In this document: positions 1 through 64,000 of the stretch, one piece after another
How positions within the stretch are numbered: position 1 is the stretch's first letter
Layout: the number at the start of each line of letters is the position of its first letter
Assembly: GCA_032718475.1 (NCBI GenBank)
Contig: JAUCBJ010007602.1
Span: 13,783-77,782 of the forward strand
Origin: Nemertoderma westbladi
Lineage: Eukaryota > Animalia > Xenacoelomorpha
Length of the DNA: 64,000 bases
Reading direction: 5' to 3'
The notes under the pieces: model-generated
Told to the model about the DNA's origin: nothing
What the model saw: only the letters and a program-made list of their open reading frames with translations
Databases searched by the model: none
Position numbers and translations under genes: made by a program

Positions 1-1774
1 GTTTCTGGCGGTGGATCCATTCGGTCTGCTCGGCGTACCAACGGGTTAGTCGCATAGGATCCTGTGGAACGGAGGGGGTAGTAGTCACCGCTGGTTGGCG
101 AAGAGGTGCCGGGGCTTTCGACAGAGGGATTCCGAGGAGATCGTTGGGAGTCGGCGCAGCGCTGGGACCCTTTTCAACCAGTATCACTGAACGGGACCAT
201 TGAGTGCTGGTACTCGGAATCTCCGAAGACCAGTCTTCGCCACCCGGGAAAGGATATGGGGATAACCTTTGGCATATGTCGCCGAAGTCGTTTAACGCGA
301 AGGTAGTAACTAACTCCCTTGCAGGGCTACCGGAGCCGAGTGGTGTGGTAATGCCCGCTTCCGTCGCAGGTTCGGCAGAGGCAACCCGTTTGGCTGCCGG
401 TTGGTAAGCGGCTTCTGGCTCGAGTTGTCGCTTCGGGGTGGAGAGTAGAACGCCCTCATGTAGCCATAGTTCTTCCCCTTCCGAAGAAATCAGAGGCTCT
501 TCCGCCCCGAGAAGATCGGTAATTGTAGGGATGTCGTAGGGTCCGTTCTCATCCCAGGAATCGATAACGGCGAGCGTTTTCATCTCTCCCGGTGTGATGT
601 TCTCGACCGCTTTGAACGCGTGCTTTATAACCTCGTTCCAGTCGTAGTCGACAAAGGAAAGAGGAACCGCCGTAATGAGGTTATTGAGGGTTTTACAGAT
701 AAACTTAGCGACGGTGTATGATTCCATAACGACGTAGATGTAGTTCCGTCGATCCGGATTTTCCCACCTTTGGTGTATCGTCCACTTTCTCTCAACGTCC
801 TTCCATCGACCCTCTCGCTCGCTCTTTATTTCCAATCCCGGGTATCCACCATATATCTTATTATAGTCCTGGAATTTCTGAGGTTTAAAGTCGATGCCGC
901 CGTTTAGCACAGCGAGGTAGCCGATCCCGGATTTCGTTTGTCTAACCTCGCGGAATCCTCGCATGAATTCGGCGGATCGTAACCAGGCTAGAAGTGTCTG
1001 GGTGTTGATGCAATGACTAATGGCATTGAGATCTCCTTTGCGGTCTCTTCCTAAAGGAGCGTTCGCGTAGTCGTTCCGGACATCCGCTTTTATATCCGAC
1101 CCGATTTTAATGACGTCGAAGTCGAAGAGGATCTTTTGGAATTCTGGAGGTAGCAACCAGATCGCTCCGGCTGCCTGCACTTCCTGTCTGGGTGTCGGAA
1201 ATATTCGACACACCAATACCAAACCGTCCAGGGTTCCGAGGACGACGACCAAGGATCGACCATATTCTTTCGCCCCGTACTTCTCCTGGTAGTCGTCGTG
1301 ATTCTGGATGATCGATATTCGTTCCTCTCGTAGCGTCGCCGTACACTCCGCTAGGTTTCCCCAGTGGGCGAGGTACGTACTCTTGTCGTCGACGAAACTT
1401 TGACATCGCGCCAACGTCATCGCTTTCGAGGTGGGCGTCGCGTTTCCCTCGTTGTCGTATATCAAACATCGGGATCTGTAGATGCTTTGCCGAAACGTTT
1501 CCCAATACGACAACTCATCCCCTCCGGTAGCCTTTGCGTTCCGAGTTCTTTTCAGTCTCGTACTAGCATCGGCCAACCGGAGGGCTCGTAGATTCCGGGA
1601 ATCCGGTCCCTCTCGCCCGGAGAATTTGACGACTCACACATTCTCGTTTATCAGGGTGCTCCAATTTGTATCAAAGTTAGGGGCTCCGGGTTGTGGATAT
1701 TCCAGTAGATCTATCGTATTACGTAATTCGCCGATAATTTGGCGATTTGGGTCCATATTTACAATTATGTCCAT
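1..1774 (-). pseudogene. DEDDy-type 3'-5' exonuclease-like accessory ORF of element 1 (one in-frame stop; open to the window edge; absent from the ORF track)
   Basis: Manual translation: ATG at 1774, TGA at 1636-1634, then open to position 1. Contains LIYDNEG (ExoI), LPPEFQKILFDFDVIKIGSDIKAD (ExoII), KSGIGYL..GIDFK and YIYVVMES (ExoIII-like), collinear with the 45397-49122 protein. Confidence 0.8.
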
Positions 1775-2999: not shown

Positions 3000-5900
3000 T
3001 TACACGGGTTTAGCATTGTCACCAATGTCTGCAGCAGGATCCTGAGTAGGGAACTTATCACCTCTCGTAGAGTAACCGCTGTCATTGCCTTCGAGAAGGC
3101 ACAGCCTCTGGATAGGGCGTTGGTAGTGGCCCTTTGCCGTTCGTATCGTCACAGTCCTCGCAAGTCCGTCTTTGCTTGGTTGTATTGCCACGACTCGCGC
3201 CACAGGCCAGTGGATGCGGTCTTTGAGGTCTTCTTTGACCAGCACCATGTCGCCAACTTCGACATTCCTGTAGGTGTTGTTCCACTTCCTCCTGGTCCGG
3301 AGGGTTATGAGGTACTCCTGGGCCCAGATTCTCCACCAATGCGCTGCCAACGCTTGGGCCTTCTTCCAGTTAGTATGTCTTGCGATATCGTCGGAATCCG
3401 GAAACATCGTCTCTGGGAGAATATGGGTTTTGGGTCTTCCCAGTAGGTGGTTAGGAGTGAGGGACTCAACCGAGGCGTTCGCCATCCGGGTATTACGGCA
3501 GATTATTCCATACTCTCCCATTAATGGTGTCAATGTTATCCACGTCATTATTATCATCAAAAACATTACTAGCCACCAAAGCATGGGCGAGCACCAATGT
3601 CCGTCTTTGAACTTGGCCTGGTCAAGGACGTCCATACAATATTGATCCTCCTCGGACGGGTTTTCGTCTTTTCAGCGAACTCTTGGGTCTCTAGATTAAA
3701 GTATTTAGTCATCTCTTGCTGGGTTTTCTCGGTCTCAAGAAACAAATCCTCGTCAAGGTCTGTAGCTGAACAATAACGCACGGATGTTGCATTCTCTTTA
3801 ATCTGACATTTAGGAAGGTATGTATAGGTGTCAGTAGTCTCTTCCTTGATGCCGCAGAGTGTCCATCCCATTATTGTTCGTTCAGCGTAAAAGCCATTAT
3901 CCTGCTTTATAGATCAGGCGACGTCTCCGGTGGGTATGTGTAATTCCGGTGTATCAAGTCCGATCAGTAGGGTGATGCAGTTTACATCCAACGGAAGGCA
4001 CCTAAGGTCTACATCGTCTCGGTCCAATTGTATGAGGGGGGCGTACTCGGCTGATTGTCGGAACCGCACTCGGAGGTCTGTGTGTACCAAGGCGTTCTTG
4101 ATGGTCAGCTTAACCGTCTCGTAGCCCTTCATTACTTCTTCCATCTGGAGCTGCACCTCCCCGGATTCTACCTCTCTGTGGTCGGTAATAGTTTGTATGG
4201 GCCGTTTGCAAGGTTCATAGTCTAGGCCGAGTTGCTCGAGGAAATCCCGGTCGATGATGGTTCCGTCCGACCCGTTATCAAGGAACGCGAGCGTTGTCAA
4301 GGATTTACCGACCCCTTGAATTCTTACTGGGATTACTTTGGCGAAGACCATGTAACGGCGATTTATAAGGTTGATCATGGCCGAGATATTTGTCACTTGT
4401 GATGCATCGGTGGAGGTTTTAAATGGGTTGGTTTCTCTCCGTTGGGTCGTCCGGGTTCCTTTAGAAACGTGGTTTGTTTCTCCTCTTCGTTTGGCTTCAA
4501 TCCGAAAGGGGAGGGTGGTGAAGTCAAAGTTCGCGGGGATGTGGAGGAGCATGTGATGACGTAGGTCGTTACAGACCACACAGCATGATCTTTGGTCGCA
4601 ATCCCGAACATAGTGACCTGTTCCAAGACACCGGAAGCATCCTCGGTGTTTCATTATCGCCTCGAAGCGTGGGACGAGTTCGGCAAACTGGAACTTCCTG
4701 CAGAATTCCACTTTATGTTTCTCTCCGCAGAAGAAACATATAGGGGAGGCTGTGGTGCCTTCCCTTTCGGGTGCCCAATTCGCTAGGTAGCATGCCCATT
4801 CTTCTGCTAAGGTCGGTTCCTCGTAATCCTCATCATCCGAGTCCTCGGCCATACTGACGGCCATCGTACTCACAGGAGTAGGGCAGAATCTTGGGTTTGG
4901 AGTGGGTGCCCTGGTAATTGCTCTCCATCCCATCCAATTTGGAGAGACTCTGTTTGGAGAACATGGGGTCGTTCATGGCCTCTGATATATCTTCTATGAA
5001 TGCCGACATTTCGAGGAAACTGGGATCTCGATCTGGGTGTCTGCGTCGGAGATCTACGCATTTATACGCCCACTTACTTTGCAGCCATCCGGGGAACTTT
5101 CGGGCGATCTGTCGGAGGTTTAGAATGTTGTTTACTTGTTCCTCCTTATTTAATGGTCTTAGAGTGTAGTAGGCATCCTTCATGGAATCTGAGAATTCCT
5201 AGATATTTTGTGGGTCCCCTAGGGATCCCGCGTCCTGTATCAGTTTCTCGAGAGTTTTATTAATTATAGTCCCGATATTTCCGTATCTTTTATCTAGAGT
5301 TTTCCATGCGTCATAGTATGCCTCATGAGCTCCTCCCTCGAAGCATGCGATAATCCGACGTGGTTTGTCGCCCAGGTATTGGGATAAATATACTAACTTT
5401 TGTGCATCGGCTATGTCCGTTGATCCAATCTGCACGAAAAACTGTTTCTTGAATCTGAGGTAATCGACGGGATCTCCTTCGAAGGTGCGGATCTCCATCT
5501 TGGGCATGGCCAGTCGGTTCTCTAATGCCCGGATGATGCCAACGTCGTCTGAACCGGAATGACTAGGAGGGTTATAATTATCGGCACTCTCTCCCATACA
5601 CGATGGATCGATGATAGGTGGAGTTTTAATGATGACGCGGCTACGGATTTGTGGTGCAGATGTAAACGGGTTGTTGGATTGGGGAGTGGCGATCCGTTCC
5701 GAGTCCTTTTCAGGCTCGTACTTGGGGACGCTCGGGACCGTGGGATTAGCTGGGATATAAGGTTCCTCATTCTTCAACGTAACCGGTGGGGGATGGAATA
5801 CCGGTGCTTGTGCCGATAACGTAGACTGTATGATAGGCAGGAACTCGGGTTTCGGGGGTTTCACCGTCGGTGTCGTTAATGACCTCTCTAATTCTGGTAT

Positions 5901-6855
5901 CGGTATTGGTTCATAGTTCAAATCTATATCCCTTTCCCAGTCCTCGTATAGTTGAATATCTCGTTCTATAACTGTGGCTTCGTATTCCGCGAGTTTCGCA
6001 ATATCCGCATTCTTTTTGTGTATGAGAATCGCTTGGGCCTCGGTGTGTTGTTTATGCATTTATGCTTCCCATTTACGTTGTTCGATCTCTTGTTGGGCCT
6101 CTCGTCCACGTTGTTCAGCTTCCTGTTCACGTTGTTCGGTCTGCCATTTGGCCTCTCGCCTATGTTGTTCAGCTTCCTGTTCACGTTGTTCGGCCTGCCG
6201 TTTGGCCGCTTGCTCGGCCTCTTGTTTTTGCATTTCGGCGGCTAATACATCTTGCTCGGTTCGCAGTTGAACATACTCATCTTCCATCCGAGCTTTGAGG
6301 GCTAATGCCTTCTGTTCTCGTAGCTGATCTCGGAGTGGCTTACCCCCTTGAGAACTGCGCGCTGAGCCGGATATCTCGCTCCTAGCGCTGGAGTGCTGGT
6401 GTCTTGAGGACCCCGTTCTCTTTCGATGAATTGTGGTCCTGGTGTTGGAGGTTCGCACTGATTCTGCGTCTGTTCTTTCAGCTCTCTTGTAGTACTGTTC
6501 CTCGTAGCCTCTCACGAAGCTGAGGGTCCTCCGGTATTGTTTGCGGAATTCGTCTAGGCGTGCAACGTGTTCTTCCAATTTGGGGTAGTTTACCTGGTCG
6601 GTGGCGGGGATGAGTTCTCGGTACGCCTGTATCATTCTCTCATATTGTTGTAAGATACTTCGGATATTCTGAAGCTGAGTTTGTATCTCGTTGAGAGGGG
6701 TTTCGACTCCATTGAGTTGTTTCTCTATACGTTGATACGCTCGAGTGACTCCGCCCTAGTCGACGGGCCATGTTCTTGACGTTCGGTACCTCGTCGGCTT
6801 CCGAGTCTGTGTGGTGGTCCATCTCATCGGTATCGGATACGTTATTCGTCGTCAA
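3000..6855 (-). pseudogene. Disrupted gag-pro polyprotein of element 1 with only the integrase C-terminus left; RT, RNase H and integrase core missing
   Basis: Fragments: coiled-coil region (6060-6635); FEGDPVDYLRFKKQF (5199-6059); CFFCGEKHKVEFC, CFRCLGTGHYVRDC, CVVCNDLRHHMLLH and FLDNGSD protease (3914-4933); LTPNHLLG..WWRIWAQEYL..WPVARV..DGLARTV..RPIQRL (DUF5641-like, 3000-3480). Fragments are separated by stops and frameshifts. Confidence 0.88.
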
Positions 6856-23921: not shown

Positions 23922-23926
23922 AAACC

Positions 23927-27915: not shown

Positions 27916-27961
27916 AGTGTGTTGTGTCTAAGACCATGCTTGGTCTTAGACACAACACACT
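27916..27961. repeat. Perfect 21-bp inverted repeat with a 4-nt loop
   Basis: AGTGTGTTGTGTCTAAGACCA-TGCT-TGGTCTTAGACACAACACACT. Confidence 0.9.
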
Positions 27962-28012
27962 GAAAGCCAACTATTTTTCATTTCTTCATTTCCTCATATT
28001 TCTTCATCCGTC

Positions 28013-42779: not shown

Positions 42780-43806
42780 TAATTGAAGAGATACGCCTAT
42801 TCCTACTATTGGAAGAGACGGTAACAATACCTGCAATATCCTACTGTAAAGTTTGTAAATCAAATCATAAATCCGACCTTCTCACCAAAACAGTAAACTC
42901 TAAGTAAGCGAATATATTGCAGTATCGATCTCTTATAACCGGTGAGGCAGAAAACAGTCTACGAGCAGACAAACTTCGATAAAACAAATCCCGCGCAGCG
43001 AATCCTAAAATCAGGCTGACTCACTGACGGACTAAGAGGCTCGTATACTTTGCCGCGGTGTGATTTATATGGTTGAGCAAAGGGGCGCTAGCTAGGTATA
43101 GAGCAGATATTTGGAGATGTCTAACTAGCGGGCAAAGCACAGTACGGACTAAGTTAATTTTATATATTTCGAGGTGTAAATAATTTCTAACGCGCGTGTG
43201 TTAATTCTGAACGGTCAAAAACAGTTTTGCTCCTTCACATATATAATTACTGGGTACGGTGTGCATTTACGAATATTCTAATTTTGTAACTTGTAGGTCC
43301 AATACTCACGAATGATAAGGTCCCTTCCCCTCTTGCGTATTTCCAGGACTCAAATTCAGGCATAAGGTTAATACTACGCCCAGAATTCGGCAATTTTAGG
43401 TACCAGGTCCCTGATACTAAGAAGAGATGTGTTAGTTTACTACTGTAGGCGTACGGGTACTAATAGCTATCCTGGCTCCTATCTAGAATTCTAGTCACCC
43501 AGGTAGTCCGGGTAACTTCCTATTAGGGCGTTGGCGGGGACACGGTAGATGTTAGTATATCCCTGATAGCCTCAATTTATTTGCGCCTAGTGTAAACTGC
43601 CCTACCGCCTGAACGGTACAATCCCAATTCAGGTGAAAACACAGCAACCCCCCTAGCCTACAAGTTCTGATGTAATGGACACTGTTGTACGGCAAATAGT
43701 CGCACACACACCTGTACTTAGCAAGAGTTAAGCGTACAGTTTGCTGCACCCTAACCAATGTGTATGCCTTGTACCGGTGTGCCTACGTCCTATCTGCGTA
43801 CTAGTA
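42780..43806 (-). repeat. Putative 3' LTR of element 2A (about 1027 bp; TA...TA ends)
   Basis: The left end TAATTGAAGAG is shared by three copies. The right end is inferred from the adjacent PPT and an imperfect inverted repeat (TAATTG / CTAGTA). Confidence 0.65.
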
Positions 43807-43838
43807 TCTGCTCTCTCTCCCTCCCCCGTAGGAATGTG
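43807..43838 (-). promoter_or_regulatory. Polypurine tract (43807-43827) preceded by an 11-mer complementary to the PBS (43828-43838)
   Basis: The minus strand reads CACATTCCTAC-GGGGGAGGGAGAGAGAGCAGA-TACTAG; the same arrangement occurs at 62449-62481. Confidence 0.7.
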
Positions 43839-44485
43839 AAGGTCTACTGTGGGTTTTCCTGAATCAAGACAGTACAGTCCCTATGATGTAATTTTAGGCT
43901 TGCAGCGTGTCACTACGTCTACCTCTTGATCTTTTGGTCTTATACTTAGGTAGCAAGGATCGAACGCTGTCTAACCTTTCAGGCGATGGGCGAATAACTC
44001 TAAGATGGTATTGCGGGTTGTCTCTCGTCTACATTCCCGTGATGTTCCCGTTCATTGCTGCGGCCCGATCTCTAGCCGGCCATCCTGTCCCTGAGTTTGT
44101 TCACCGTAGTGAATTCATAGTAAAACAGAAAAGCTGAGAGAATATTCTGACTTTATTACAGAAGACACAATTATAATACAATGTAATCTGAGAATAAACT
44201 AAGCACGACAGAATAAATCTGAGAAGTATAGATTGAAAATTGAAGATAGTGTGAGTGATAACTAATGAACGAATCGCACCTTTATATACTAAATTTGTGC
44301 TGCAATCAATCGAGAAAATTCTCGATTGTTCTATGGGTTCTAACAAGGTTTTAAAGATAGCTTATTGGTCCAGCTAATATATAACTTGCACGACATTGGT
44401 TACAATCAAATAACTACAGCCTTATTGGTACAGACAAATGCAATTAATTTGTAGCGGTTAATTTAAATGAGTTGAAATTCTGCAC

Positions 44486-44573
44486 AAAAAATAATTCGCA
44501 CTTACTAGGATTCGAACTCGATACCTACTACACATATAATTTCCAACGCTCTACCAACTGAGCTACTGAACCA
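44486..44573 (-). ncRNA. tRNA-like Pol III cassette inside element 2A (degenerate; not a functional tRNA)
   Basis: TAGCTCAGTTGGTAGAGC (A box and D-arm), GAGTTCGAATCC (B box), then TTTTTT; acceptor and anticodon stems do not pair; identical copy at about 63119-63206. Confidence 0.55.
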
Positions 44574-45396
44574 CTTGACCGATAGATACACAATAGATAG
44601 AACCAATACTAATGAGAACTCAAAGCAATCTTTACAAAGTTAATTCGAATAAAATAAAATTTTGAAAATCCACGGCATTTAGGGAATATAATTCTATACC
44701 GCTCCATGAAAACAGGATATTATCGTGCATAAAAATATACGGTTTTCACCAATAATCAATCAAACTATAGAATACTTAGGGCGTACTTACATATTTACAA
44801 TTAAATTTCAAACAATACTTCCTTTCTACGTAATGATTCGATACAAAATAATTACAAATTCAAACTTTACGTATTTAAGGCTTTACTAAGTAAGTACAAT
44901 ATAAATCTAAATTAAATTCACCAATATAAATCTATTGCATCTCAATATTGCATAAATTTAAACAATTACAAATACAAATAAATGAAAACAATAAGAAAGG
45001 CTCGCGAGTCTTCCATCTACTATTGCATCCCAAATATTGCATAAATTCAAGTAATTACAAATACTTTCGTACCTAAATGTAGATTGCATAAGTTTGGAAT
45101 AATTACAAATATGAGTCTTTCTGAGCACAAAATTTTCCATCTATAAAACTTTCTATTTCACTGTAAATACAAATACTGCTTATAAAATATAAATTGCATA
45201 ATATTCGGAACTCTTTAGGTAAGTTCGGAATAATCACAAATATAAAATATAAATTCTTACAAATATAAATCTTTCAAATATAAGTTCCTTCTAAATATAA
45301 ACACTTAAATTTTCTAAATATAAAACATATAATTCAAAATAAATCACTAATCATAAGAAAGGCCCACGAGTCTTCCGTCCACCCTTGCCCTCCCTT

Positions 45397-48300
45397 TTAT
45401 CGCTTAGTAGATCGAGCCCTGCCGCGTCCTCGAAAACTGCGCACAGGTGACTTTGCTCGCGATATGGGACTTGTGGGGCGAGTCACTGGTTTACTTGGGA
45501 CGTTGAGGGACGGTGCGACTATTTCCTCGCAAATTCGTCTATTTGGCATCCCAAAACCTCGACCAATTCCTCGTGACCGATCAGTTGTCGCTACAGTTGG
45601 TAGAACGTCTGGGAACTCGCGAAAGGCGGACGACGCAGACCCAAGAGTAGCTTGCGCCCCCTGTTGATCAGCTGGTGTATGTCCCGATCCTCCTACCGGT
45701 TCTCTTGGAAGTGATACCGTATCCCGAGTAACTCGAATAGTCGGCTCAACTCCCTTGCGTTCTTCTACATTAATAATTTTCTTTAATTGTTGGCCCACTT
45801 TCTGGACCCGTATGATCCTACCCTGTCCGTCCTCCCGAGGGTGACGTGCAGACGGCGCAACCGGAGTGGCTGATATATTCGTCGCCTCTAGGACCTCCTC
45901 TTCCTCGAATACGCTCGCTCGTATACGTTTGTGGTAAAACGCGGCTCGGTACGCCCATGCGACGGTTAACCAAGCTCCCTTGTTCCGCTTTTCAGTTCGG
46001 AAACGATCGAATTCACCATACGTAATCCGATTAACGACTTTCTGAAAATTCCACGTGTTTTTGTTATCTGGGTGAATCTGTAACAGATACTCGCGCACCA
46101 CTCGGAATCCGCTGTCGTGGGGCAAAATATCAACAACCTCGATAAGTTCGTCATATTGGGGCATAGCGGAGATATATCCTTCCGACATCATCGTCTGAGG
46201 GTTTACCGCCCAAAATCCGAGATGCGCTCTCATCGGAAACCGTCTTCTCTGTGCCGATACATGTTCGTCGGCTAAATCTTCCCACTCATCAAATAACTTC
46301 CTCACAAGTTTTACAGATTCGTGTTCATAAGGTATATCTCTCAGTTGGCATTCAGATGCTCGATGTCCCTTTATATTGCAGTAAGTACATTGAGCCATAA
46401 ATCTCCAGCAAGTATAAAAGGTATGAGACCCTTGATCCCCACACCATCCACAGATTAGCTGAGTCGTAGTAATGTGCTTTCCACTGCACTTTGCCATATG
46501 ATGTCCAGCGACGCCACATTTACTACACATCGTATTGGCAGGGTACCACACTCGTTCGTATATAAGATCTCCAATCGGTCGAGCGCTTCCTCCCATACTA
46601 TAATCGTAATCATCTGGGTCTATGGGTTGGTAGGTTTCTGAAGGTTGTAGGCAAACTATAGCATCTGTTGCTTCAAGTTGTCGAATCTCCGTCTGAGATT
46701 TCTTCGGGAGGTTCCTTTCAATCTCAAGAAGTTCCTCTAAAGGATCGTCGGCGATCGTAGTAGTTACTTCGAATTCATCACCAAGGTGACCGATAGGCGC
46801 GCGCGTCTGCCGTGATTCATCCGTAATTTCCACGATACGTTCTCCTTCATAGGGTAACAATGTAAACATAGATGGTCTTTCGATAAGAGATCCCGCACAG
46901 CGAAGATACACGTCTCGAAATATGCTAAATCCTGCTCGAGTAAAGGCATTACACTGAGCGTCGGAGTTGTAGAAGGGTTCAAGGAATCGTCTAAACACGT
47001 CGGTACGAATTCTCCCTTCCATGTAGAACGTATGATCTTCTCCGAGACAAAGTGGATGTCTTTTGAGAGTCCGAGACACAATGTCGGCGATTAGGCAAAC
47101 ATTCACTGACGACTCTATCGCTAAATAATATTGTAAGACCGCTCTTGGAGGTGACGTAATAGCCCAATACACGCATCCTCTCCATTTAAGCTGTGATTCA
47201 AACTCACTCATATCTGGAGTATCACCTTCTCCATAAGTTTCAATATACTTGTTCCTTTTACCTTCCTTATAATCCCAATTGAATAACAGGTAGGAAATGT
47301 ATCCAGTTCCAGTCTTCTGAGTATTATACTCACGAAAATATCCCTGTTCTATAGACCACAGAATAAGAGGTCGAGTGTCGACGTATGGTGTCGGTAGTCG
47401 GTCATCGCTGTCCGTCATGCCGGCGAAGTCGCTAATTAAATCCTCCCTTACTCCTGATCCAACCTTTACAACAGTTTTATCTAAAATCATGTTTCTTACC
47501 ATCTTCGGTAACATTCTAGCGTCAATATTACAAGCTTGGTCCATCTTCTTTACTATATCGGTGATAAGATGGTGTCGCTTTGTATTCGCTGGAGGTATCG
47601 GCATTCGTTTGTCGCTCCTCTGTCTACTGAAAACGTGCAGAACTCCGTCCGCCGCTCTAATCTGTATAGTCTTAGAAGTCAAACTTTGCTGATGACTGCC
47701 GCCCTCGTTATCGTAAAACATATAACCGTTTTCCTGAAACGATCTAAACGTCCTAGTCCATTCATCCAACAATTCTTCCGAAGGTTGCCAAATCTTCTCT
47801 ATATCCTTATCCTCATCGAAACGAATAACCTTACCTCGCCAATCTGCGGCAATATCCGTATCCGACTCGAAGGTTCCGATTCCAATCCATAAACGAATCG
47901 TCTTGGTTAGATATCCTTTCAGATTACTCGGAGCTATGTCGGCACCAGCTCTATCCAGTTCCTTAAAATCTTGGATATGAGGTGGAACGTTGTTCACGAC
48001 CTTTTGAGTAATATGTCTACGTAAATCATATATCTTACTCATATCGCTGAAAACAACTGCAGGAAGAAACTCCAAGTTTGAAATGATTTCTGGATGATCC
48101 ACGATGGGTATTTCGTACGTCGTATCCTGTCGGACTGGTATACTAATAGGGAAATTGAGTGTCGTACTCAATGGTTTCGTAGCTGAAGTACTATACGGTT
48201 GCATTTCTCTTGGCCTCTCCGGGGATGCAATCTGTAATCTCTGAATAACGTTTTGAGCAAAGTTTATGCTCTCGAAAACTTCCGGTGTCATCTCCTTAGC

Positions 48301-49122
48301 TGAAGTTTGATCGTGTGACGTCCAATGGCAAGGTAGGCTCGCGAGTCTTCCACCCCATTCTTCCATCTCACCTTTCTCGAAAGCCTTGTAGGCTCTGTAT
48401 AGGCTAAGAGCTTCTTTCTTTTCGCGGGTTGACTGATTCGCCTCGTCCAGCGTAAGTTCAAATACATCGGGTTCAACAACCTTAGGTGGGTAAATGACAG
48501 TTTCTCCCGCCTTTGGTCCGGTCATAGCAAATGAATGATATGGATTCGATAAAGGATACCCTCCTTCCTGGTAGCGTAGTTGTTGATGATTCGAACACCT
48601 CGCCAATATCGGTTCGGGATTTTCCTTATTCAAACGCATCGGAATCGCATTTCGTTGTTCGCGCATACAAGAACCGCATTGATAATAAAGTTTATAAACT
48701 GAAAATGCTTCCTTGGTTTCTCTATCGTCCCCTCGAGTTCGTCTGTAAAGATGCATTCCATCGAATTCATCGCGTACCGCGGGCATAGGTTCGTGCGCCT
48801 TTAGGTATTGCATGGTATGATACAAACGACTAATTTCAGTATCGGGGTCTTCGCTAATGTCTCCCGTATCACACAAAGCATCGTACGGGTAAAGTTCGTT
48901 GAAGGTTTGGCGCAAACTTTCGATTCTTTCGTTTAATGCGTTTTGCCTTCTCTTTAATACATTCGAGTCATATTTAGTTCTCGCGAGTTTCGCTGTACTT
49001 TCCGATAATTCTTTTATACCAAATATAGTGTAATCCTTGGCTCCAAATCTTTCGAATGGCGCTGCTGCCTCCTCTTGGATATCATATCCCCATCTCGGCT
49101 CTCCTTGTATCCCTTTCTCCAT
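45397..49122 (-). CDS. 1241-aa accessory protein: DEDDy-type (WRN/EXD/Mut-7-like) 3'-5' exonuclease domain plus three CCHC zinc knuckles
   Basis: MFYDNEG (ExoI, 47704-47712), TIQI, LPKMVRNMILDKTVVKVGSGVREDL (ExoII), YVDT, GTGYISYLLFNWDYK, QYYLAIES (ExoIII-like); CSKCGVAGHHMAKC, CGWCGDQGSHTFYTC, CTYCNIKGHRASEC. Confidence 0.85.
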   Translation of the reverse strand: MEKGIQGEPRWGYDIQEEAAAPFERFGAKDYTIFGIKELSESTAKLARTKYDSNVLKRRQNALNERIESLRQTFNELYPYDALCDTGDISEDPDTEISRLYHTMQYLKAHEPMPAVRDEFDGMHLYRRTRGDDRETKEAFSVYKLYYQCGSCMREQRNAIPMRLNKENPEPILARCSNHQQLRYQEGGYPLSNPYHSFAMTGPKAGETVIYPPKVVEPDVFELTLDEANQSTREKKEALSLYRAYKAFEKGEMEEWGGRLASLPCHWTSHDQTSAKEMTPEVFESINFAQNVIQRLQIASPERPREMQPYSTSATKPLSTTLNFPISIPVRQDTTYEIPIVDHPEIISNLEFLPAVVFSDMSKIYDLRRHITQKVVNNVPPHIQDFKELDRAGADIAPSNLKGYLTKTIRLWIGIGTFESDTDIAADWRGKVIRFDEDKDIEKIWQPSEELLDEWTRTFRSFQENGYMFYDNEGGSHQQSLTSKTIQIRAADGVLHVFSRQRSDKRMPIPPANTKRHHLITDIVKKMDQACNIDARMLPKMVRNMILDKTVVKVGSGVREDLISDFAGMTDSDDRLPTPYVDTRPLILWSIEQGYFREYNTQKTGTGYISYLLFNWDYKEGKRNKYIETYGEGDTPDMSEFESQLKWRGCVYWAITSPPRAVLQYYLAIESSVNVCLIADIVSRTLKRHPLCLGEDHTFYMEGRIRTDVFRRFLEPFYNSDAQCNAFTRAGFSIFRDVYLRCAGSLIERPSMFTLLPYEGERIVEITDESRQTRAPIGHLGDEFEVTTTIADDPLEELLEIERNLPKKSQTEIRQLEATDAIVCLQPSETYQPIDPDDYDYSMGGSARPIGDLIYERVWYPANTMCSKCGVAGHHMAKCSGKHITTTQLICGWCGDQGSHTFYTCWRFMAQCTYCNIKGHRASECQLRDIPYEHESVKLVRKLFDEWEDLADEHVSAQRRRFPMRAHLGFWAVNPQTMMSEGYISAMPQYDELIEVVDILPHDSGFRVVREYLLQIHPDNKNTWNFQKVVNRITYGEFDRFRTEKRNKGAWLTVAWAYRAAFYHKRIRASVFEEEEVLEATNISATPVAPSARHPREDGQGRIIRVQKVGQQLKKIINVEERKGVEPTIRVTRDTVSLPREPVGGSGHTPADQQGAQATLGSASSAFREFPDVLPTVATTDRSRGIGRGFGMPNRRICEEIVAPSLNVPSKPVTRPTSPISRAKSPVRSFRGRGRARSTKR

Positions 49123-49779: not shown

Positions 49780-52700
49780 TTATTTACTTGTATTAGGTGG
49801 AGATTTGTAGTCTCCAGACTCGTTACGAGTTTCTTCAAGAAGTACGAGACGTTGAGTCGGTCTGTCTACTGTACGACCGTCAATTGTCCGTACTGTCACA
49901 GTTCTTGTCACTCCATCCATAGATGGATGTGTGGCTAAAATGACACCTGTTATCCAGAAGCGTCTTTTTAGATTCACTTCTGCCAACAGCACGTGATCTC
50001 CCGGCTTTAATGCGCGGGTGTTATTGTACCATGTTGTTCTGGCAGAAATAGAGGGCAAATAATGGTTTTGCCATATTTCCCAGAATTTGTTAGCCAGTAG
50101 TTGCGTGATTTTCCACGCTTTTCTACCGTAACTGTCGCTTTCTATTGGAATAGAAATCGGCGTTAATGTCGTCGGTGCCTGCATAAGCAGGTGTGCCGGT
50201 GTTAAAGCAAACTGGGATTGTTTGTCATCGGGTACTAATACTATTGGTCTAGTATTTAGTATTGCCTCGATTTCAACAAACAATGTTGTCAGTTGGTCGT
50301 CTGTTAATATGTGGTTTACTGGAATGACCTTTGCCATTGCCGTCTTTATAGATCTAATCAATCTCTCCCAGACTCCGCCTCTCCAAGGACTATCTGGAGG
50401 ATTAAACTTCCAAACAATCTTGTGAGGTTGAAGTTCGTTCGAGATTTGATCATGATCTAATTTCTTAAAGGCTCTAGCAATCTCATTCCGAGCACCAACA
50501 AAGTTTGTCCCTTGGTCTGAGTACAAGCATTTTACTAGTCCGCGTCTAGCGATAAATCGCCGCAGTGCTAGTATAAACGCGTTGGTGGAAAGATCCATCA
50601 CACGTTCAATGTGAACTGCCCTACTGGACATACATGTGAAAATCAGTCCCCAGCGTTTTACTAGTATGCGTCCACGTTTCGTATGTATGGGACCAAAGCA
50701 ATCAATTCCAGTCTCTGTAAAAGGTGGCCTGAATGCTTGAAGTCGTGCTTGTGGTAGTTCACTCATTTCTTGGGTACCTATTCTAGAATGTACCTTTTTA
50801 CAAATAATACACGTACGTGTCACTGAACTTAATGCTTTACTGGGTCTAATTAATACAAATCTAGTACGTAAGTAGGAAAGACAGTGGTGTCTTCCAGCGT
50901 GTTTCAGATGTAAATGTGCGTCCAGTATCATTGCACGTTGTAGTTCGTGATGTTGCGGTATTATTATTGGGTACCTAAAGTTTGTGTTAAAGTCAATGTT
51001 TTGAAGCCGAGATTTATGACAAATCAAGCCATTATAAATAATCGGACTCCAACTCAGTATTGGTGACGACTTGATTGGTTGACCTTGATTTATAGATGTG
51101 AATTCGCGCGCGAAATATCGCAGTTGGTAATGGCGAATTAATTTAATCTCACACCTGTCAATCTCAGCCAATGTAAGTCGACGTGTAAAGTCACGTTTGC
51201 CTTTAACATATTGTACAAAACGTACAATCCACGCTAACTTTCGGCAAGCGTTTGACCAAGAGTCTGTTAAGTTTACAATGCGGTCGACGTAAGTATTTGT
51301 GACGTCATCAGGTAAGTCAATGGAGATTTTGGAAGGTTTTAAATTACTAGAAGGGCCCACGGGTCCGCCGGTAGGTATTCCCTTGTTGACTGTTGATCCG
51401 TCGGGGTCTACAAGTAATTTGTCCTTCTTTGTCTTCTTACCTTGATTGTCGGTACTTTGTAAGTCGATCGTTAATGGTGGTTTGAACTCTATGGGGTCAG
51501 CAGGTTTCGGTAAACTTATTTTCCTGCCGACATTAATCCCAGGTCTCACCATAGGTTGTAAGTTCGGTATGTCTCTTGAGCGCAAAGTAACACCTGTATT
51601 TACATTAGCGTAGGTACTACCCACATCTGCAATACATGAGGTTTCACCATGCTTATGGTTGCTCAAGTGTGTCAAAATTGGTAGTTTGTCAATACAAGGC
51701 CGCTCCAATAGGGAAACTGCGGCTTTATTGTTAGTCAATACATTACTAGTGTCTAGTCGACTGTCTAGTAATGTGTCTGGCGATACGTCTGGTAACGTAT
51801 CTAGTTGTTTGTCAATAGAAGGCCGCTCCAATAGGGAAACTGCGGCTTTACTGTTAGTCAATACATTACTAGTGTCTAGTCGACTGTCTAGTAATGTGTC
51901 TGGCGATACGTCTGGTAACGTATCTAGTTGTTTGTCAATAGAAGGCCGCTCCAATAGGGAAACTGCGGCTTTATTGTTAGTCAATACATTACTAGTGTCT
52001 AGTCGACTGTCTAGTAATGTGTCTGGCGATACGTCTGGTAACGTATCTAGTTGTTTGTCAATAGAAGGCCGCTCCAATAGGGAAACTGCGGCTTTATTGT
52101 TAGTCAATGTGTTACTAGCGTCTGGTGGAACATTTTGTGATATGTCTGGCAAAACGTCTGGTTGACCGTCTAGTAACGTGTCTGGTTGACCGTCTGGTGA
52201 TATGTCTGGTGTAGAAAGGCTCGCAAGTCTTCCTCTCTTGACCTTTGAAGTTATATCCTTCCATTTCGCCTTCGGTTTTTTCTTGAGTTTTGCCGCCGTC
52301 CTTTTCTTTGTATCGACGGGCATTGTTGATGTCGTTGGGGTAGGTAGACTCGCAAGCCTATCATCTGTCGTCGATGGAATCTCTAGCTGACTCGTCTTCT
52401 CCCCAAGTTCTAAACTCACCTTGTGGATTAGCTGCTCCTTGTGACTTATCATACTAGTTACACGTCTGTTATGTTTTGTCGACTGTAGTGTAGTATGGTT
52501 CACGTCGTGTGAAAAGGAATGAATTGAATTTATAGTTAATAAACTACATGTACTCTGTACATCGTCTTCCTCGTCACTTACGTCTAGTGTGCGCACAGGC
52601 GCTCGAGTATACCACCCTATCGGCGTTCTGCAGGCGTATGCGTTTCCTGCTACAACTGCCGATGGTCTGGTTTCCCACACCTGATGTAGGTTGAATTGGT

Positions 52701-55405
52701 CCGTCCCGATCAGCATTGCTACCGATCTATAATTGACAGGACATTCGGGTACACCAAGGTGTCTGAAATACTTACGGTCCTCCAGAGATTGTTCCGGCAC
52801 TGGACCTAGTAGGTTACTAAAGTCCTTCGTGGCCGCAAAGGTTAGATCTCTAAAGGGCAACAAAGACCTCTCCCTCTCGCTATGCTGCGATTTTGGAAGA
52901 AGAGAGTCTAAGTCCAACTTAACTCGTGTCACTGGTATTGCACGCTGGCCGTGCATACTACTTACTGTATAACTGACGTGTTTACCTTGTCTTAGATCCG
53001 TCACGACGTCAGCTATCTTTTCGTCCACGTAGCTATGGGATGAGGCTGAATCTAGAATCGCATAGATCCTCTTGCTCCCTTTTGTGCCAGTAACCTTAAT
53101 CGGGATTACACTGAATCCCTTCAGTTGATCCGTAGTCAGGAGCGCGATCGACGGTTGTTCGTCTCCATTGGAATATTCGTCATCGTCTTCTGATTCTTCG
53201 TCCGACGATCCGGATTGTTCTGAGAAGCAATCCTCAATATGTGTCACGAAGGTCGGAGTCGTTTTCGATTCTCGTTTTCGGTAGGCCGCATCGCATCTCG
53301 CTGCTGCTTCCGGGTGTTCCCTGGCGAAGCGTTTCGTCGGCGTGTGGCTGTCTGTGTGGAGCAGACCGTCATGGTTGCGTCCACAGGATGGACAAGTGTC
53401 GGTATTTGGGCAATCCTTGCGCACGTGTCCGTGTCGCGTACACCGCCAACAAGAGTCCAGTGGCCGTATCTGCAGCCGTCGTTCTTCCGAGTTCAACTCG
53501 CGAAATTGTCGACAACCTCGTAACTTGTGACCAATATACCGCTTACCTAGATGTTCGCAGTATTGGCAGCCGTTGAAGTCGGTGCTGAGTTGCTGTCTCG
53601 TCTGTTTCGTCCCAATGGGCGCAGATACTCTATTACCGTCTGAGAATTGTCGTGATTCCGTCGGTGCGGCGTAAGTGGCCGTCTTTGTGGATGTTGTCTG
53701 GGGTTTTTGTCGGTTGGAGGATGGCAGTGTGATCCCTTCTGCCACGATGTGCTGGTCGGTATAGTTAGATCGAGTTTCTACTACCGCCTCCCTGGATATT
53801 AAAAGGTACACATCTTCTAATTTTAGGAATCCTCCTCGCTCCTCTCGCTGGTATTCGACCTTCCTCCACTCCCGACGAAGTCGATGGTGGAGTCGTCCTA
53901 TTATCTTTAATAGAACTGTAGGGGTATTCCCGTAATCAAGTTGTCCAATTGATCTTAAGGTAGTGATAGCGTTCTTGATCTCGTCAGCCAGTTTTAGTAA
54001 GTCGACGGGTTTAGTGATAGCCCCTCCCTTACAGAGTTCCTCTATTACTGACCTGGCCATACTCACTGTACCTCCGTATATCGAAGTTAAACGATCGTAC
54101 GCTAGTTCGAAAGCGTCCGGTACACCAACGAAGGTCTCCGCCAAACGTTTAGGTTCTCCTGACAACGTTTGGAGCAAGTAATTGAACTTCTCCCGTGATG
54201 TAAAGGCGCACACGGCGATCTGGGATTCGATATAGTCTACGAAGGTATGCCAGTGTTTTGAGCTACCGGAAAACTTCGGTGGTTGTTGTACCGGCAATCC
54301 CTGTCTGGCTGCGAATTTCGCTATCTCCTCGGCAACGTTCAGAGTTTCGCGTCCTTGGTTGGTGACTTGGTTGATATCCCTTCTTGGCGCTTTTCCCTGA
54401 TACGATGTGGGGTTTGAAGGTACCGGTCTTTGTGGTTCCTTCTGGTGTCTATTGTGTTCGAATTCGGAATTTCTCGAACTGTCGGTTTGAACTTCCTCCA
54501 GACGCTCCTCGATCTGAGCCAACTTATTTACAACTGGTCGCAGAATGTCGGCGAACTGTTGTGTACTAATTGCGTCCGTTGGTTGTAACGCCTTCTGTGT
54601 TGGTGTATTCTGTGGAGGATTGTCTGCAAAGGAGTTGTCTGAACGCTCGCGTTTATATTCATCGGCCGCCCCTGTTCTAAATACCTCGCGTTTCGGGTAA
54701 TCCGACTCGCTCGAAGTACTACTGTCACCTGGATACGGTGGTCGACGTGCTCGAGTCCGTTGCGCCGTTCGAATCCTAACATTCCGTTTCGGAACATCGT
54801 CCACTGATCTCCGTTGTTCGGTAGGCTCACAAGTCTTCCTCGAAGTCGTAGATTGCGATGTAAATTGGTTGAATGGTCGCGTCTCCACTGTTCTCCGTTG
54901 TTCGGTAGGCTCACAAGTCTTCCTCGAAGTCGTAGATTGCGATATAAATTGGTTGAATGGTCGCGTCTCCACTGTTCTCCGTTGTTCGGTAGGCTCACAA
55001 GTCTTCCTCGAAGTCGTAGATTGCGATGTAAATTGGTTGAATGGTCGCGTCTCCACTGTTCTCCGTTGTTCGGTAGGCTCACAAGTCTTCCTCGAAGTCG
55101 TAGATTGCGATGTAAATTGGTTGAATGGTCGCGTCTCCACTGTTCTCCGTTGTTCGGTAGGCTCACAAGTCTTCCTCGAAGTCGTAGATTGCGATGTAAA
55201 TTGGTTGAATGGTGGGCGAATGACAGCATTTGAAACAACTGGCCTTGTCGGTCGAAACGTCATTGGGTAAGCGTAGTGTGTAACGGGTTTAGGTGTCGAC
55301 GGTGGACTCACCTGTTTAGTTGTCAGTAGTGCAGGTCCAGTCAACAAACTACTACGATCCGTAATCGGTGGGTTACTTACCTTGACTTTCGGAATGGGCG
55401 ACGAC
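49780..55405 (-). CDS. Element 2A polyprotein, C-terminal part: gag core, 3 zinc knuckles, protease, repeat spacer, integrase
   Basis: PKFSGSSKHWHTF; CQYC..H..C, CWRCTRHGHVRKDC, CPSCGRNHDGLLH; AILDSAS; HLHLKH..CIIC; GIDCFGP, SDQGTNF, GGVWERLI; FWEIWQNHYL. No YxDD RT motif. Confidence 0.92.
51680..52125 (-). repeat. 114-bp (38-aa) coding tandem repeat, about 3.5 copies, in the PR-IN spacer
   Basis: TNNKAAVSLLERPSIDKQLDTLPDVSPDTLLDSRLDTSNVL repeated. Confidence 0.9.
54799..55213 (-). repeat. 84-bp (28-aa) coding tandem repeat, 5 copies, in gag
   Basis: PFNQFTSQSTTSRKTCEPTEQRRTVETR repeated. Confidence 0.95.
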
Positions 55406-60764: not shown

Positions 60765-61424
60765 TAATTGAAGAGATACGCCTATTCCTACTATTGGAAG
60801 AGACGGTAACAATACCTGCAATATCCTACTGTAAAGTTTGTAAATCAAATCATAAATCCGACCTTCTCACCAAAACAGTAAACTCTAAGTAAGCGAATAT
60901 ATTGCAGTATCGATCTCTTATAACCGGTGAGGCAGAAAACAGTCTACGAGCAGACAAACTTCGATAAAACAAATCCCGCGCAGCGAATCCTAAAATCAGG
61001 CTGACTCACTGACGGACTAAGGGGCTCGTATACTTTGCCGCGGTGTGATTTATATGGTTGGGCAAAGGGACGCTAGCTAGGTATAGAGCAGATTTGGAGA
61101 TGTCTAACTAGCGGGCAAAGCACAGTACGGACAAAGTTAATTTTATATATTTCGAGGTGTAAATAATTTCTAACGCGCGTGTGTTAATTCTGAACGGTCA
61201 AAACAGTTTTGCTCCTTCACATATATAATTACTGGGTACGGTGTGCATTTTACGAATATTCTAATTTTGTAACTTGTAGGTCCAATACTCACGAATGGTA
61301 AGGTTCCTTCCCCTCTTGCGTATTTCCAGGACTCAAATTCAGGCATAAGGTTAATACTACGCCCAGAATTCGGCAATTTTAGGTACCAGGTCCCTGATAC
61401 TAAGAAGAGATGTGTTAGTTTACT
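60765..61424 (-). repeat. 660-bp U5-side portion of the 5' LTR of element 2A
   Basis: Direct repeat of 42780-43441, directly abutted by another LTR copy at 61425. Confidence 0.9.
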
Positions 61425-64000
61425 TAATTGAAGAGATACGCCTATTCCTACTATCGGAAGAGACGGTAACAATACCTGCAATATCCTACTGTAAAGTTTG
61501 TAAATCAAATCATAAATCCGACCTCCTCACCAAAACAGTAAACCCTAAGTAAGCGAATATATTGCAGTATCGATCTCTTATAACCGGTGAGGCAGAAAAC
61601 AGTCTACGAGCAGACAAACTTCGGTAAAACAAATCCCGCGCAGCGAATCCTAAAATCAGGCTGACTCACTGACGGACTAAGGGGCTCGTATACTTTGCCG
61701 CGGTGTGATTTATATGGTTGGGCAAAGGGACGCTAGCTAGGTATAGAGCAGATTTGGAGATGTCTAACTAGCGGGCAAAGCACAGTACGGACAAAGTTAA
61801 TTTTATATATTTCGAGGTGTAAATAATTTCTAACGCGCGTGTGTTAATTCTGAACGGTCAAAACAGTTTTGCTCCTTCACATATATAATTACTGGGTACG
61901 GTGTGCATTTTACGAATATTCTAATTTTGTAACTTGTAGGTCCAATACTCACGAATGGTAAGGTTCCTTCCCCTCTTGCGTATTTCCAGGACTCAAATTC
62001 AGGCATAAGGTTAATACTACGCCCAGAATTCGGCAATTTTAGGTACCAGGTCCCTGATACTAAGAAGAGATGTGTTAGTTTACTACTGTAGGCGTACAGG
62101 TACTAATAGCTATCCTGGCTCCTATCTAGAATTTTAGTCACCCAGGTAGTCCGGGTAACTTCCTATTAGGGCGTTGGCGGGGACACGGTAGATGTTAGTA
62201 TATCCCTGATAGCCTCAATTTATTTGCGCCTAGCGTAAACTGCCCTACCGCCTGAACGGTACAATCCCAATTCAGGTGAAAACACAGCAACCCCCTAGCC
62301 TACAAGTTCTGATGTAATGGACACTGTTGTACGGCAAATAGTCGCACACACACCTGTACTTAGCAAGAGTTAAGCGTACAGTTTGCTGCACCCTAACCAA
62401 TGTGTATGCCTTGTACCGGTGTGCCTACGTCCTATCTGCGTACTAGTATCTGCTCTCTCTCCCTCCCCCCGTAGGAATGTGAAGGTCTACTGTGGGTTTT
62501 CCTGAATCAAGACAGTACAGTCCCTATGATGTAATTTTAGGCTTACAGCGTGTCACTACGTCTACCTTTTGATCTTTTGGTCTTATACTTAGGTAGCAAG
62601 GATCGAACGCTGTCTAACCTTTCAGGCGATGGGCGAATAACTCTAAGATGGTATTGCGGGTTGTCTCTCGTCTACATTCCCGTGATGTTCCCGTTCATTG
62701 CTGCGGCCCGATCTCTAGCCGGCCATCCTGTCCCTGAGTTTGTTCACCGTAGTGAATTCATAGTAAAACAGAAAAGCTGAGAGAATATTCTGACTTTATT
62801 ACAGAAGACACAATTATAATACAATGTAATCTGAGAATAAACTAAGCACGACAGAATAAATCTGAGAAGTATAGATAAATTAGTATAAGTGTAACTAATG
62901 AACGAATCGCACCTTTATATACTAAATTTGTGCTGCAATCAATCGAGAAAATTCTCGATTGTTCTATGGGTTCTAACAAGGTTTTAAAGATAGCTTATTG
63001 GTCCAGCTAATATATAACTTGCACGACATTGGTTACAATCAAATAACTACAGCCTTATTGGTACAGACAAATGCAATTAATTTGTAGCGGTTAATTTAAA
63101 TGAGTTGAAATTCTGCACAAAAAATAATTCGCACTTACTAGGATTCGAACTCGATACCTACTACACATATAATTTCCAACGCTCTACCAACTGAGCTACT
63201 GAACCACTTGACCGATAGATACACAATAGATAGAACCAATACTAATGAGAACTCAAAGCAATCTTTACAAAGTTAATTCGAATAAAATAAAATTTTGAAA
63301 ATCCACGGCATTTAGGGAATATAATTCTATACCGCTCCATGAAAACAGGATATTATCGTGCATAAAATATACGGTTTTCACCAATAATCAATCAAACTAT
63401 AGAATACTTAGGGCGTACTTACATATTTACAATTAAGTTTCAAACAATACTTCCTTTCTACGTAATGATTCGATACAAAATAATTACAAATTCAAACTTT
63501 ACGTATTTAAGGCTTTACTAAGTAAGTACAATATAAATCTAAATTAAATTCACCAATATAAATCTATTGCATCTCAAATATTGCATAAATTCAAACAATT
63601 ACAAATACAAATAAATGAAAACAATAAGAAAGGCTCGCAAGTCTTCCATCTACTATTGCATCCCAAATATTGCATAAATTCAAGTAATTACAAATACTTT
63701 CGTACCTAAATGTAGATTGCATAAGTTTGGAATAATTACAAATATGAGTCTTTCTGAGCACAAATTTTCTGTCTATAAAACTTTCTAAATACAAAATAAC
63801 ACTTTACAAATGAAACTATAAGAAAGGCCCACGAGTCTTCCATGTACTCTTACTTTCTATTTCACTGTAAATACAAATACTGCTTATAAAATATAAATTG
63901 CATAATATTCGGAACAATATACATTGCATAAGTTCGGAATAATATAAATTGCATAAGTTCGAAATAATCACGTAAATATAAAATATAAATTCTTACTAAA
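61425..64000 (-). mobile_element. 3' end of a second copy (element 2B): LTR 61425-62448, PPT and 3' UTR; runs off the right edge
   Basis: Matches 42780-45260 with scattered substitutions and indels. Confidence 0.9.

What the first reader, a model, noticed from the sequence alone, without database searches (positions are those of the whole stretch)
1..1774. A second, highly diverged homolog of the exonuclease in a different BEL element (missed by the ORF track)
Seen: a manually translated minus frame gives YDNEG, LPPEFQKILFD..VIKIGSDIKAD, INTQTLLAW..GFRE..KSGIGYL..DFK and YVVMES. These align in order with YDNEG, LPKMVRNMILD..VVKVGSGVRED, VDTRPLILW..YFRE..KTGTGYI..DYK and YLAIES of the 45397-49122 protein. 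It sits in the same position downstream of integrase, yet the two elements have unrelated LTRs. Both copies have Glu in place of the ExoIII Asp (YxxxE). Inference: the exonuclease is an old, selected component of a whole lineage rather than a one-off capture, with a possible 'DEDEy' active-site variant.
Basis: seen in the sequence. Interest (0 to 1): 0.8.

Follow-up and report, generated by a model that had tools for sequence, protein, structure and literature searches.

The report
BEL retrotransposons carrying an exonuclease gene
Two very different BEL-type jumping genes in this genome each carry an extra, related gene for a protein predicted to be a nucleic-acid-trimming enzyme of the EXD2/WRN type; the copies show signs of selection, and it likely trims the elements' own RNA or DNA during copying.

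Summary
Window 1774-1 (minus strand) is an ORF with one in-frame stop that runs off the window edge. It is a true homolog of the 45397-49122 protein (0 of 1000 shuffles reach the score). Neither protein hits Pfam's exonuclease model, but a two-sequence profile found five unnamed relatives. Through them the family links to DEDDy exonucleases (HH probability 96.6%; PDB hits only EXD2 and WRN). The four columns that are acidic in all seven members are the four DEDD positions. The last is Glu in three members and Asp in four, so 'DEDEy' is a real position-level variant inside a D/E family; activity is untested. Copies of element 1 differ mostly at third codon positions (21 of 37 places), which indicates purifying selection. 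Both elements are BEL/Pao copies lacking reverse transcriptase. Co-descent in one BEL lineage is neither shown nor rejected: the two exonucleases are 23% identical, no closer than to the outside relatives, and the backbone trees are unresolved. DEDDy ORF3s are known from rotifer Juno/Vesta elements; my searches found none reported for BEL/Pao. New variant of a known kind.

The parts
1..1774 (-). Accessory ORF3 of element 1: ATG at 1774, one in-frame stop at 1636-1634, open at the window edge (at least 590 codons)
   Evidence: place 1636 differs from this copy in nearly all laid depth in 4 of 4 runs, so the stop looks private to this copy
668..1513 (-). DEDDy (EXD2/WRN-type) 3'-5' exonuclease domain, residues about 41-322 of P0001
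   Evidence: 84 bits to an HMM of the five outside relatives; family profile hits EXD2/WRN in PDB
1448..1456 (-). ExoI motif D60-x-E62
   Evidence: invariant in 7 of 7 rows; same register in two local MAFFT modes
1259..1444 (-). About 60-residue stretch between ExoI and the next strand, much longer than in any relative (element-1-specific insertion)
   Evidence: alignments
1082..1084 (-). ExoII D184
   Evidence: invariant in 7 of 7 rows
722..736 (-). ExoIII Y300-x-x-x-E304, Glu at the position of the canonical Asp
   Evidence: column reads EEEDDDD over the 7 rows; aligns with YAAxD of bacterial DEDDy domains
2..583 (-). Pro/Ser/Thr-rich linker after the nuclease; the Cys/His knuckle cluster seen in relatives would lie beyond the window edge (inferred)
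   Evidence: architecture of P0002 and P0125-P0127
1775..2999 (.). Spacer between the pol remnant and ORF3, with three degenerate repeats of about 80 bp; no LTR-like match elsewhere in the window
3000..6755 (-). Element 1 backbone in several broken frames: gag coiled coil and DUF1759, knuckles, aspartic protease, then only the DUF5641 end of integrase; RT, RNase H and integrase core absent
   Evidence: Pfam; tblastn of 5 complete BEL polyproteins
45397..49122 (-). Intact ORF3 of element 2: unassigned N-terminal 440 aa, exonuclease (ExoI 47715-47701, ExoIII 47127-47110), linker, Cys/His knuckle cluster and conserved tail
45380..45396 (-). Purine-rich tract followed by TG directly after the ORF3 stop of element 2 (likely polypurine tract and LTR start)
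   Evidence: sequence; the LTR start itself is inferred, the 5' LTR runs off the window
42780..45155 (-). 3' LTR of element 2 (matched part), 98.3% identical to 61425-63787
49780..55404 (-). Element 2 gag-protease-integrase frame, open for 1874 codons, with RT and most of RNase H absent and 123-bp repeats in that interval
60765..64000 (-). 5' LTR of element 2 with a 660-bp tandem duplication, cut by the window edge

Best explanation
The region is the third gene of a decayed, RT-less BEL/Pao retrotransposon copy; it encodes a predicted EXD2/WRN-type DEDDy 3'-5' exonuclease with Glu at the last acidic site, which is likely active and likely trims 3' ends of the element's own RNA or cDNA while held there by zinc knuckles. 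Shown: homology to element 2's ORF3, membership of a seven-member family, motif register, third-position bias among copies, RT-less backbones. Inferred: catalysis with the longer Glu side chain; separate expression of ORF3 (spliced or internal transcript); knuckles in element 1; action inside the element's particle with RT borrowed from a complete relative. My odds by layer: DEDDy fold 0.95; kept by selection as element cargo 0.9; catalytically active 0.7; end-processing in the particle as the main job 0.4; shared by co-descent in one BEL lineage 0.55.
For: Homology. Five relatives among 1,835,955,588 representatives at E<=0.001; 3 of 5 have a weak PF01612 hit, best E 2.4e-4, all under the curated cut-off. 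An HMM of those five alone scores P0001 84 bits and P0002 65 bits, against a best of 5.1 bits among 1002 shuffled or reversed controls; their profile matches 11 bacterial stand-alone DEDDy domains at 96.6% (E 4.9e-10) across ExoI-III. The family profile finds 3 of 177,635 PDB sequences at E<=1, all EXD2 or WRN, best 8.4e-5. 4 of 177 fully filled columns are acidic in all 7 rows, and they are the four DEDD positions; Y300 is invariant. Among copies in four runs, 21 of 37 differing places are third codon positions (p 0.003), 13 of 15 among those at >=10% depth in X1, with no indel listed. Knuckle cluster and tail are shared by P0002 and P0125-P0127. Asp/Glu exchange at ExoII is reported in rotifer ORF3s and nidoviral ExoN (PMC5408684; PMC7968707).
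Against: No activity, substrate or expression data. The window proteins alone match no exonuclease model in Pfam, PHROGs or PDB; my bacterial DEDDy HMMs gave them no score above the shuffle range. Folds were low confidence (pLDDT 35 and 47), so active-site geometry with Glu and with the 60-residue insertion is not shown. A Glu at ExoIII has no precedent in the four papers listed (listing and abstract starts only), so it could lower activity. Whether Glu is fixed among element-1 copies was not tested: no differences at all were listed within 30 bases of either end of the laid stretch, where that codon lies. The genomic context of the five relatives is unknown. Nothing here separates end-processing from counter-silencing.
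Confidence: 0.45

Rival explanations
1. Same active nuclease, different job: a counter-silencing factor that degrades or mis-trims host small RNAs or double-stranded RNA aimed at the element.
For: Host DEDD-family proteins work in silencing (mut-7, EXD1, Maelstrom; PMC5408684), and arenavirus ExoN suppresses innate immune signalling (PMC7968707). Both copies lack RT yet keep ORF3, which fits a job not tied to reverse transcription. Unchecked scan notes list other exonuclease types in the same slot.
Against: No small-RNA or expression data. RT-less copies could keep ORF3 simply because the deletion is recent.
Confidence: 0.3
2. The Glu-type proteins are pseudo-nucleases that bind RNA ends without cutting, like EXD1.
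For: The ExoIII acid is non-canonical in both window proteins; element 1 has a long insertion right after ExoI; EXD1 and Maelstrom are described as inactive DEDD derivatives (PMC5408684).
Against: D60, E62, D184 and Y300 are invariant and position 304 is always acidic at 20-28% pairwise identity; dead enzymes usually lose these residues (general knowledge).
Confidence: 0.15
3. On origin (independent of function): the two elements took the gene separately from a pool shared among retroelements, not from one BEL ancestor.
For: Element 1 and 2 exonucleases are no closer to each other (22.6%) than to P0125 (27.1% each). 77 of 120 outside BEL proteins score higher with element 1's C-terminal domain than element 2 does, and all reported hits do so for the knuckle-protease region (100 of 100, 84 of 84). 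The knuckle-protease tree separates them. N-termini and spacers differ. Such sharing is reported in rotifers (PMC5408684).
Against: Exonuclease divergence matches gag (23%) and knuckle-protease (26%) divergence. The two are sisters in the exonuclease tree (67/64) and in both C-terminal trees (88, 41), and share YDNEG and the Glu. A clade is not rejected in the protease tree (p 0.26). Long branches weaken every one of these trees, in both directions.
Confidence: 0.4
4. Each element recently captured a different host gene (EXD2, WRN or similar), or the resemblance is chance.
For: Closest solved structures are host EXD2 and WRN; host eukaryotic sequences were not in my tree.
Against: Leave-one-out scores within the family are 84-139 bits against at most 20 bits for 67 bacterial domains, and EXD2 scores 25 bits with the family profile. 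The seven share an insert absent from the bacterial domains, and four share the knuckle tail. Chance is excluded.
Confidence: 0.04

Closest known systems
DEDDy-exonuclease ORF3 of bdelloid rotifer Juno and Vesta LTR retrotransposons and Athena/Terminon retroelements (Rodriguez, Kenefick, Arkhipova 2017, PMC5408684; main text read, parts 1-3 of 5; figures and supplement not seen)
   Same: Separate ORF downstream of pol; DEDDy 3'-5' exonuclease with acidic residues kept; one Asp changed to Glu; function untested; proposed 3'-end processing or a role in silencing.
   Different: Host elements here are BEL/Pao (DUF1759, DUF5641). The Glu is at ExoIII (DEDE), not ExoII (DEED). A knuckle cluster and conserved tail follow the nuclease in element 2 and three relatives. 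Both window copies lack RT. I could not compare sequences with the rotifer ORFs, so kinship with them is untested.
EXD2 and WRN exonuclease domains (PDB 6k17, 2e6l, 2fbt)
   Same: Only PDB sequences hit by the family profile; same ExoI, LP..L.D..V.KVG..I..D and W...Q..Y...D layout.
   Different: 25 bits or less; the element family has its own insert after the GLG helix, D/E at ExoIII and a knuckle tail; it is mobile-element cargo.
DEDDy domain of Dada DNA transposons (PMC3706591; two passages read)
   Same: Transposon-encoded DEDDy exonuclease thought to process 3' ends.
   Different: Inserted inside a DDE transposase, all four residues canonical, not a retroelement ORF3.
BEL/Pao elements with env-like extra ORFs such as roo and mosquito Chuviridae-like glycoproteins (PMC13524379, PMC3118150; passages read)
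   Same: Extra ORF in a BEL/Pao element.
   Different: The cargo is a fusogen, not a nuclease; 'nuclease' occurs 0 times in PMC3118150 and 'exonuclease' 0 times in PMC13524379.

Membership tests
DEDDy 3'-5' exonuclease (EXD2/WRN type) | ExoI D-x-E | tested here: met
   D60, E62 invariant in 7 of 7 rows; full-length alignment A2 misplaced it, trimmed alignments agree
DEDDy 3'-5' exonuclease (EXD2/WRN type) | ExoII Asp | tested here: met
   D184 invariant; aligns with the Asp of bacterial domains
DEDDy 3'-5' exonuclease (EXD2/WRN type) | ExoIII Y-x-x-x-D with a canonical Asp | tested here: not met
   Tyr kept, Glu in both window proteins and P0125, Asp in 4 relatives; so filed as a variant, not a canonical member
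DEDDy 3'-5' exonuclease (EXD2/WRN type) | Profile-level homology to the family | tested here: met
   HH probability 96.6% via five relatives; PDB EXD2 E 8.4e-5; no direct Pfam PF01612 hit for either window protein
DEDDy 3'-5' exonuclease (EXD2/WRN type) | RNase H-like fold | tested here: inconclusive
   model pLDDT 46.7; Foldseek top 11 ranks are EXD2 chains but best E 0.08; wide search filled by the helical insertion
DEDDy 3'-5' exonuclease (EXD2/WRN type) | Two-metal 3'-5' exonuclease activity | not testable with these tools
   needs an assay
BEL/Pao LTR retrotransposon | Gag DUF1759, knuckles, aspartic protease, C-terminal DUF5641 in that order | tested here: met
   both elements (Pfam; protease region of element 2 by alignment); 120 best of 627 relatives of element 2's integrase all carry PF18701
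BEL/Pao LTR retrotransposon | RT and RNase H (autonomous element) | tested here: not met
   no tblastn match over the RT region of 5 complete polyproteins in either element; both are non-autonomous derivatives
BEL/Pao LTR retrotransposon | Paired LTRs around the coding region including ORF3 | tested here: inconclusive
   met for element 2 (98.3%); element 1's 3' LTR lies outside the window and no genome is held
Rotifer Juno/Vesta/Athena DEDDy ORF3 group | DEED motif and clustering with the rotifer ORFs | not tested
   long branches, low support

The most novel reading that the evidence does not exclude
An ancient branch of BEL/Pao retrotransposons encodes an active, knuckle-tethered EXD2-type exonuclease with a DEDE active site that edits reverse-transcription intermediates, a retroelement counterpart of nidoviral ExoN proofreading; RT-less families keep it and supply it to particles that borrow RT from complete relatives.
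Probability: 0.12. Interest if true: 0.85.

Novelty: new variant of a known kind. Interest (0 to 1): 0.55.

Why it matters
Exonuclease cargo in LTR retrotransposons was reported from rotifers and its function is still open. This finding extends it to BEL/Pao elements, defines an unnamed seven-member family that Pfam misses, and supplies a natural pair of Glu-type and Asp-type active sites that can be assayed side by side. It makes testable whether retroelements edit their own replication intermediates or attack host silencing RNAs, and whether DEDD nucleases tolerate Glu at ExoIII.

Tried and rejected
Word-indexed homolog searches with each exonuclease region found nothing (0 of 554 and 0 of 1947 candidates). 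Single proteins and the two-row profile found no exonuclease in PDB, Pfam or PHROGs; NCBIfam gave only a weak DnaQ hit over ExoI of element 2 (E 0.032). Phage tblastn gave two chance hits. The two-row profile over 151 bacterial genomes gave one stop-ridden match. Metagenome and viral contig scans found no relative, so the context of the relatives is unknown. My first DEDDy HMM run and the hhalign run on it used wrong reading frames for part of the bacterial set and are discarded; the corrected run (67 domains, L106 dropped for a stop, L105 and L107 not used) was not significant. A long-block motif chain failed; a short-motif version ranked the two proteins 1 and 2 of 22 window ORFs (z 1.5-3.4) but did not pick ExoIII. 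Single-sequence fold failed; the seven-row fold was weak and its searches uninformative. The Atlas gave no result. No RNA holder was listed. A clade of the three Glu-type proteins is neither shown nor rejected (p 0.48). I considered an alternative register placing ExoI at residues 108-113 of P0001 (suggested) and rejected it, because trimmed alignments put YDNE in the ExoI column. Contig depth was not used as copy number.

Full report
Observation. The minus frame from 1774 begins with ATG, has one in-frame stop at 1636-1634 and is open at the window's left edge. The motif cores are in the stated order in both this protein (P0001) and the 45397-49143 frame (P0002). BLASTP gives 28% over 103 aa, E 4e-9. 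The local score of 112 is reached by 0 of 1000 shuffles (mean 42, max 79). The two ORFs share no DNA-level match. The homology is real.

Setting. Both ORFs lie downstream of a BEL/Pao gag-protease-DUF5641 backbone on the same strand, 1.2 kb and 0.66 kb after its end. Five complete BEL polyproteins match neither element over the RT region. Element 1 also lacks the integrase core and is broken into several frames. Element 2 keeps one 1874-codon frame, has LTRs 98.3% identical, and has a purine-rich tract and TG directly after the ORF3 stop, so its ORF3 is inside the element. Element 1's 3' end is outside the window and no genome is held. Its 5' region shares no blastn match with element 2's LTR, but I did not delimit its LTR.

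Is it an exonuclease? The two proteins alone do not show it: no exonuclease hit in Pfam, PHROGs or PDB, a weak DnaQ hit in NCBIfam (E 0.032), and no score above the shuffle range with HMMs of 67 bacterial PF01612 domains. A short-motif chain ranked them 1 and 2 of 22 window ORFs but missed ExoIII. The link came from a profile search: 5 of 1,835,955,588 representatives scored E<=0.001 (P0125-P0129), all unnamed. They show clear D-x-E, D and Y-x-x-x-D/E motifs, and 3 of 5 have a weak PF01612 hit. An HMM of these five alone scores P0001 at 84 bits and P0002 at 65 bits, against 5.1 bits for the best of 1002 controls. Their profile matches 11 bacterial stand-alone DEDDy domains at 96.6% probability across all three motifs. 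The seven-row profile finds 3 of 177,635 PDB sequences at E<=1: EXD2 (8.4e-5) and two WRN domains. Folding was weak (pLDDT 35 and 47); Foldseek ranked EXD2 chains first but not significantly, and the wide search was uninformative.

Active site. Of 177 columns filled in all seven rows, nine are invariant, among them D60, E62, D184 and Y300. Exactly four are acidic in all rows: 60, 62, 184 and 304. Column 304 is Glu in both window proteins and P0125, and Asp in the other four. Element 1 has a long insertion after ExoI; a full-length alignment misplaced ExoI because of it, while trimmed alignments agree on YDNE. Retention of an acid at 20-28% identity argues for an active site (inference). Asp/Glu exchange at ExoII is reported for rotifer ORF3s (PMC5408684) and nidoviral ExoN (PMC7968707). 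I saw no report of Glu at ExoIII in the four papers listed (listing and abstract starts only). P0002 and P0125-P0127 also share a Cys/His knuckle cluster and tail; in element 1 it would lie beyond the window.

Selection. Four public runs (at most three samples, three studies; one may be the source) hold many contigs of element 1. At 1636 nearly all laid depth differs from this copy in 4 of 4 runs, so the stop looks private to it. Over 700-930, 21 of 37 differing places are third codon positions (p 0.003), 13 of 15 among those at >=10% depth in X1, and no indel is listed. These places are not independent events and include this copy's own changes. None was listed within 30 bases of either end, so the Glu codon (724-722) was not tested.

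One lineage or a shared pool? Divergence of the exonucleases (28% core, 23% overall) resembles that of gag (23%) and knuckle-protease (26%); DUF5641 is 43%. The seven domains form a clade against 11 bacterial domains (98/98), with the two window proteins sisters at only 67/64; host eukaryotic exonucleases and the rotifer ORFs were not available for the tree. They are 22.6% identical, no closer than to P0125. Against the best 120 of 627 BEL relatives, 77 of 120 score higher with element 1's C-terminal domain than element 2 does. Trees join the two backbones at SH-aLRT 88 (24 of 120 relatives) and 41 (63 of 120, quick tree in place of an unfinished careful one), and separate them on the knuckle-protease region without rejecting a clade (24 of 120, AU p 0.26). 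Both are long branches. None of the 120 polyproteins holds the domain, but a separate ORF3 would not appear there. Co-descent is about as likely as exchange (0.55 against 0.4). Recent separate capture of host genes is unlikely: within-family scores are 84-139 bits against 25 for EXD2.

Mechanism. Shown: a selected, family-level accessory gene with a DEDDy layout. Inferred: it is expressed as a separate ORF3, binds nucleic acid through the knuckles and trims 3' ends of the element's RNA or cDNA in the particle, with RT borrowed from a complete relative (0.4-0.45). Rivals are counter-silencing (0.3) and a non-cutting RNA binder (0.15). No data here separate the first two.

Known and new. DEDDy ORF3s are described in rotifer Juno, Vesta and Athena/Terminon elements (PMC5408684, main text read, parts 1-3 of 5; PMC6431247 and PMC5718144, passages) and a DEDDy domain in Dada transposases (PMC3706591, passages). 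Eight searches and passages of two papers covering BEL/Pao (PMC3118150; PMC13524379) showed no report for BEL/Pao. Repbase and GyDB entries, subscription journals, figures and supplements were not seen and may hold such families. Unchecked scan notes describe other exonuclease types in gypsy and LINE elements; they are leads only, and they suggest the theme recurs.

Verdict. New variant of a known kind, interest 0.55.

Noticed in passing
window 55406-58282: GC-rich DNA transposon inserted in element 2's gag: terminal inverted repeats (about 220 bp at 93%), 8-bp target duplication, intact 751-codon frame (55737-57992, minus) with no Pfam hit. The hAT/hATm label is recalled from the 8-bp duplication and TAG ends, not tested.
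   Followed up: partly
window 15070-18060 and 21536-23184: Gypsy-type element whose integrase ends in a weak PWWP match (E 0.005-0.016, under cut-off), where chromodomains are more usual (recalled).
   Followed up: no
window 17972-21211: LINE frame (PHD finger, endonuclease, RT; 1079 aa) on the opposite strand between the parts of the gypsy element.
   Followed up: no
window 34433-42778: 27-bp satellite of about 307 copies that abuts the end of element 2's 3' LTR.
   Followed up: no
window 8752-9999, 11652-14280, 10063-11647, 23922-25426: A 47/48-bp array split by a segment that recurs at 23922-25426 (about 93%); 14349-14616 equals 23658-23925 (99%). The arrangement does not read as one simple LTR pair.
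   Followed up: no
window 51684-52162 and 54800-55213: In-frame 123-bp and 84-bp tandem repeats inside element 2's polyprotein; the 123-bp array lies in the interval where RT is missing, and the frame stays open into integrase.
   Followed up: partly
window 47800-49122: The N-terminal 440 aa of element 2's ORF3 has no Pfam hit and holds a C-x2-C ... C-x2-H pattern; element 1 has only about 105 codons before ExoI.
   Followed up: partly
window 29193-31448: 751-codon frame with a rhodopsin-family GPCR match (E 4.6e-19), likely a host gene among the repeats.
   Followed up: no
window 32174-33069 and 27716-28639: Long inverted repeats that look like non-coding miniature transposons.
   Followed up: no
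window 7624-8441: Degenerate 95-bp repeats upstream of element 1's gag; may belong to its 5' LTR or to another element.
   Followed up: no
window 3467-3582: About 115 bp of unassigned sequence joins the post-protease region to the DUF5641 remnant in element 1; loose ends are listed at both edges, so some contigs continue differently there.
   Followed up: partly
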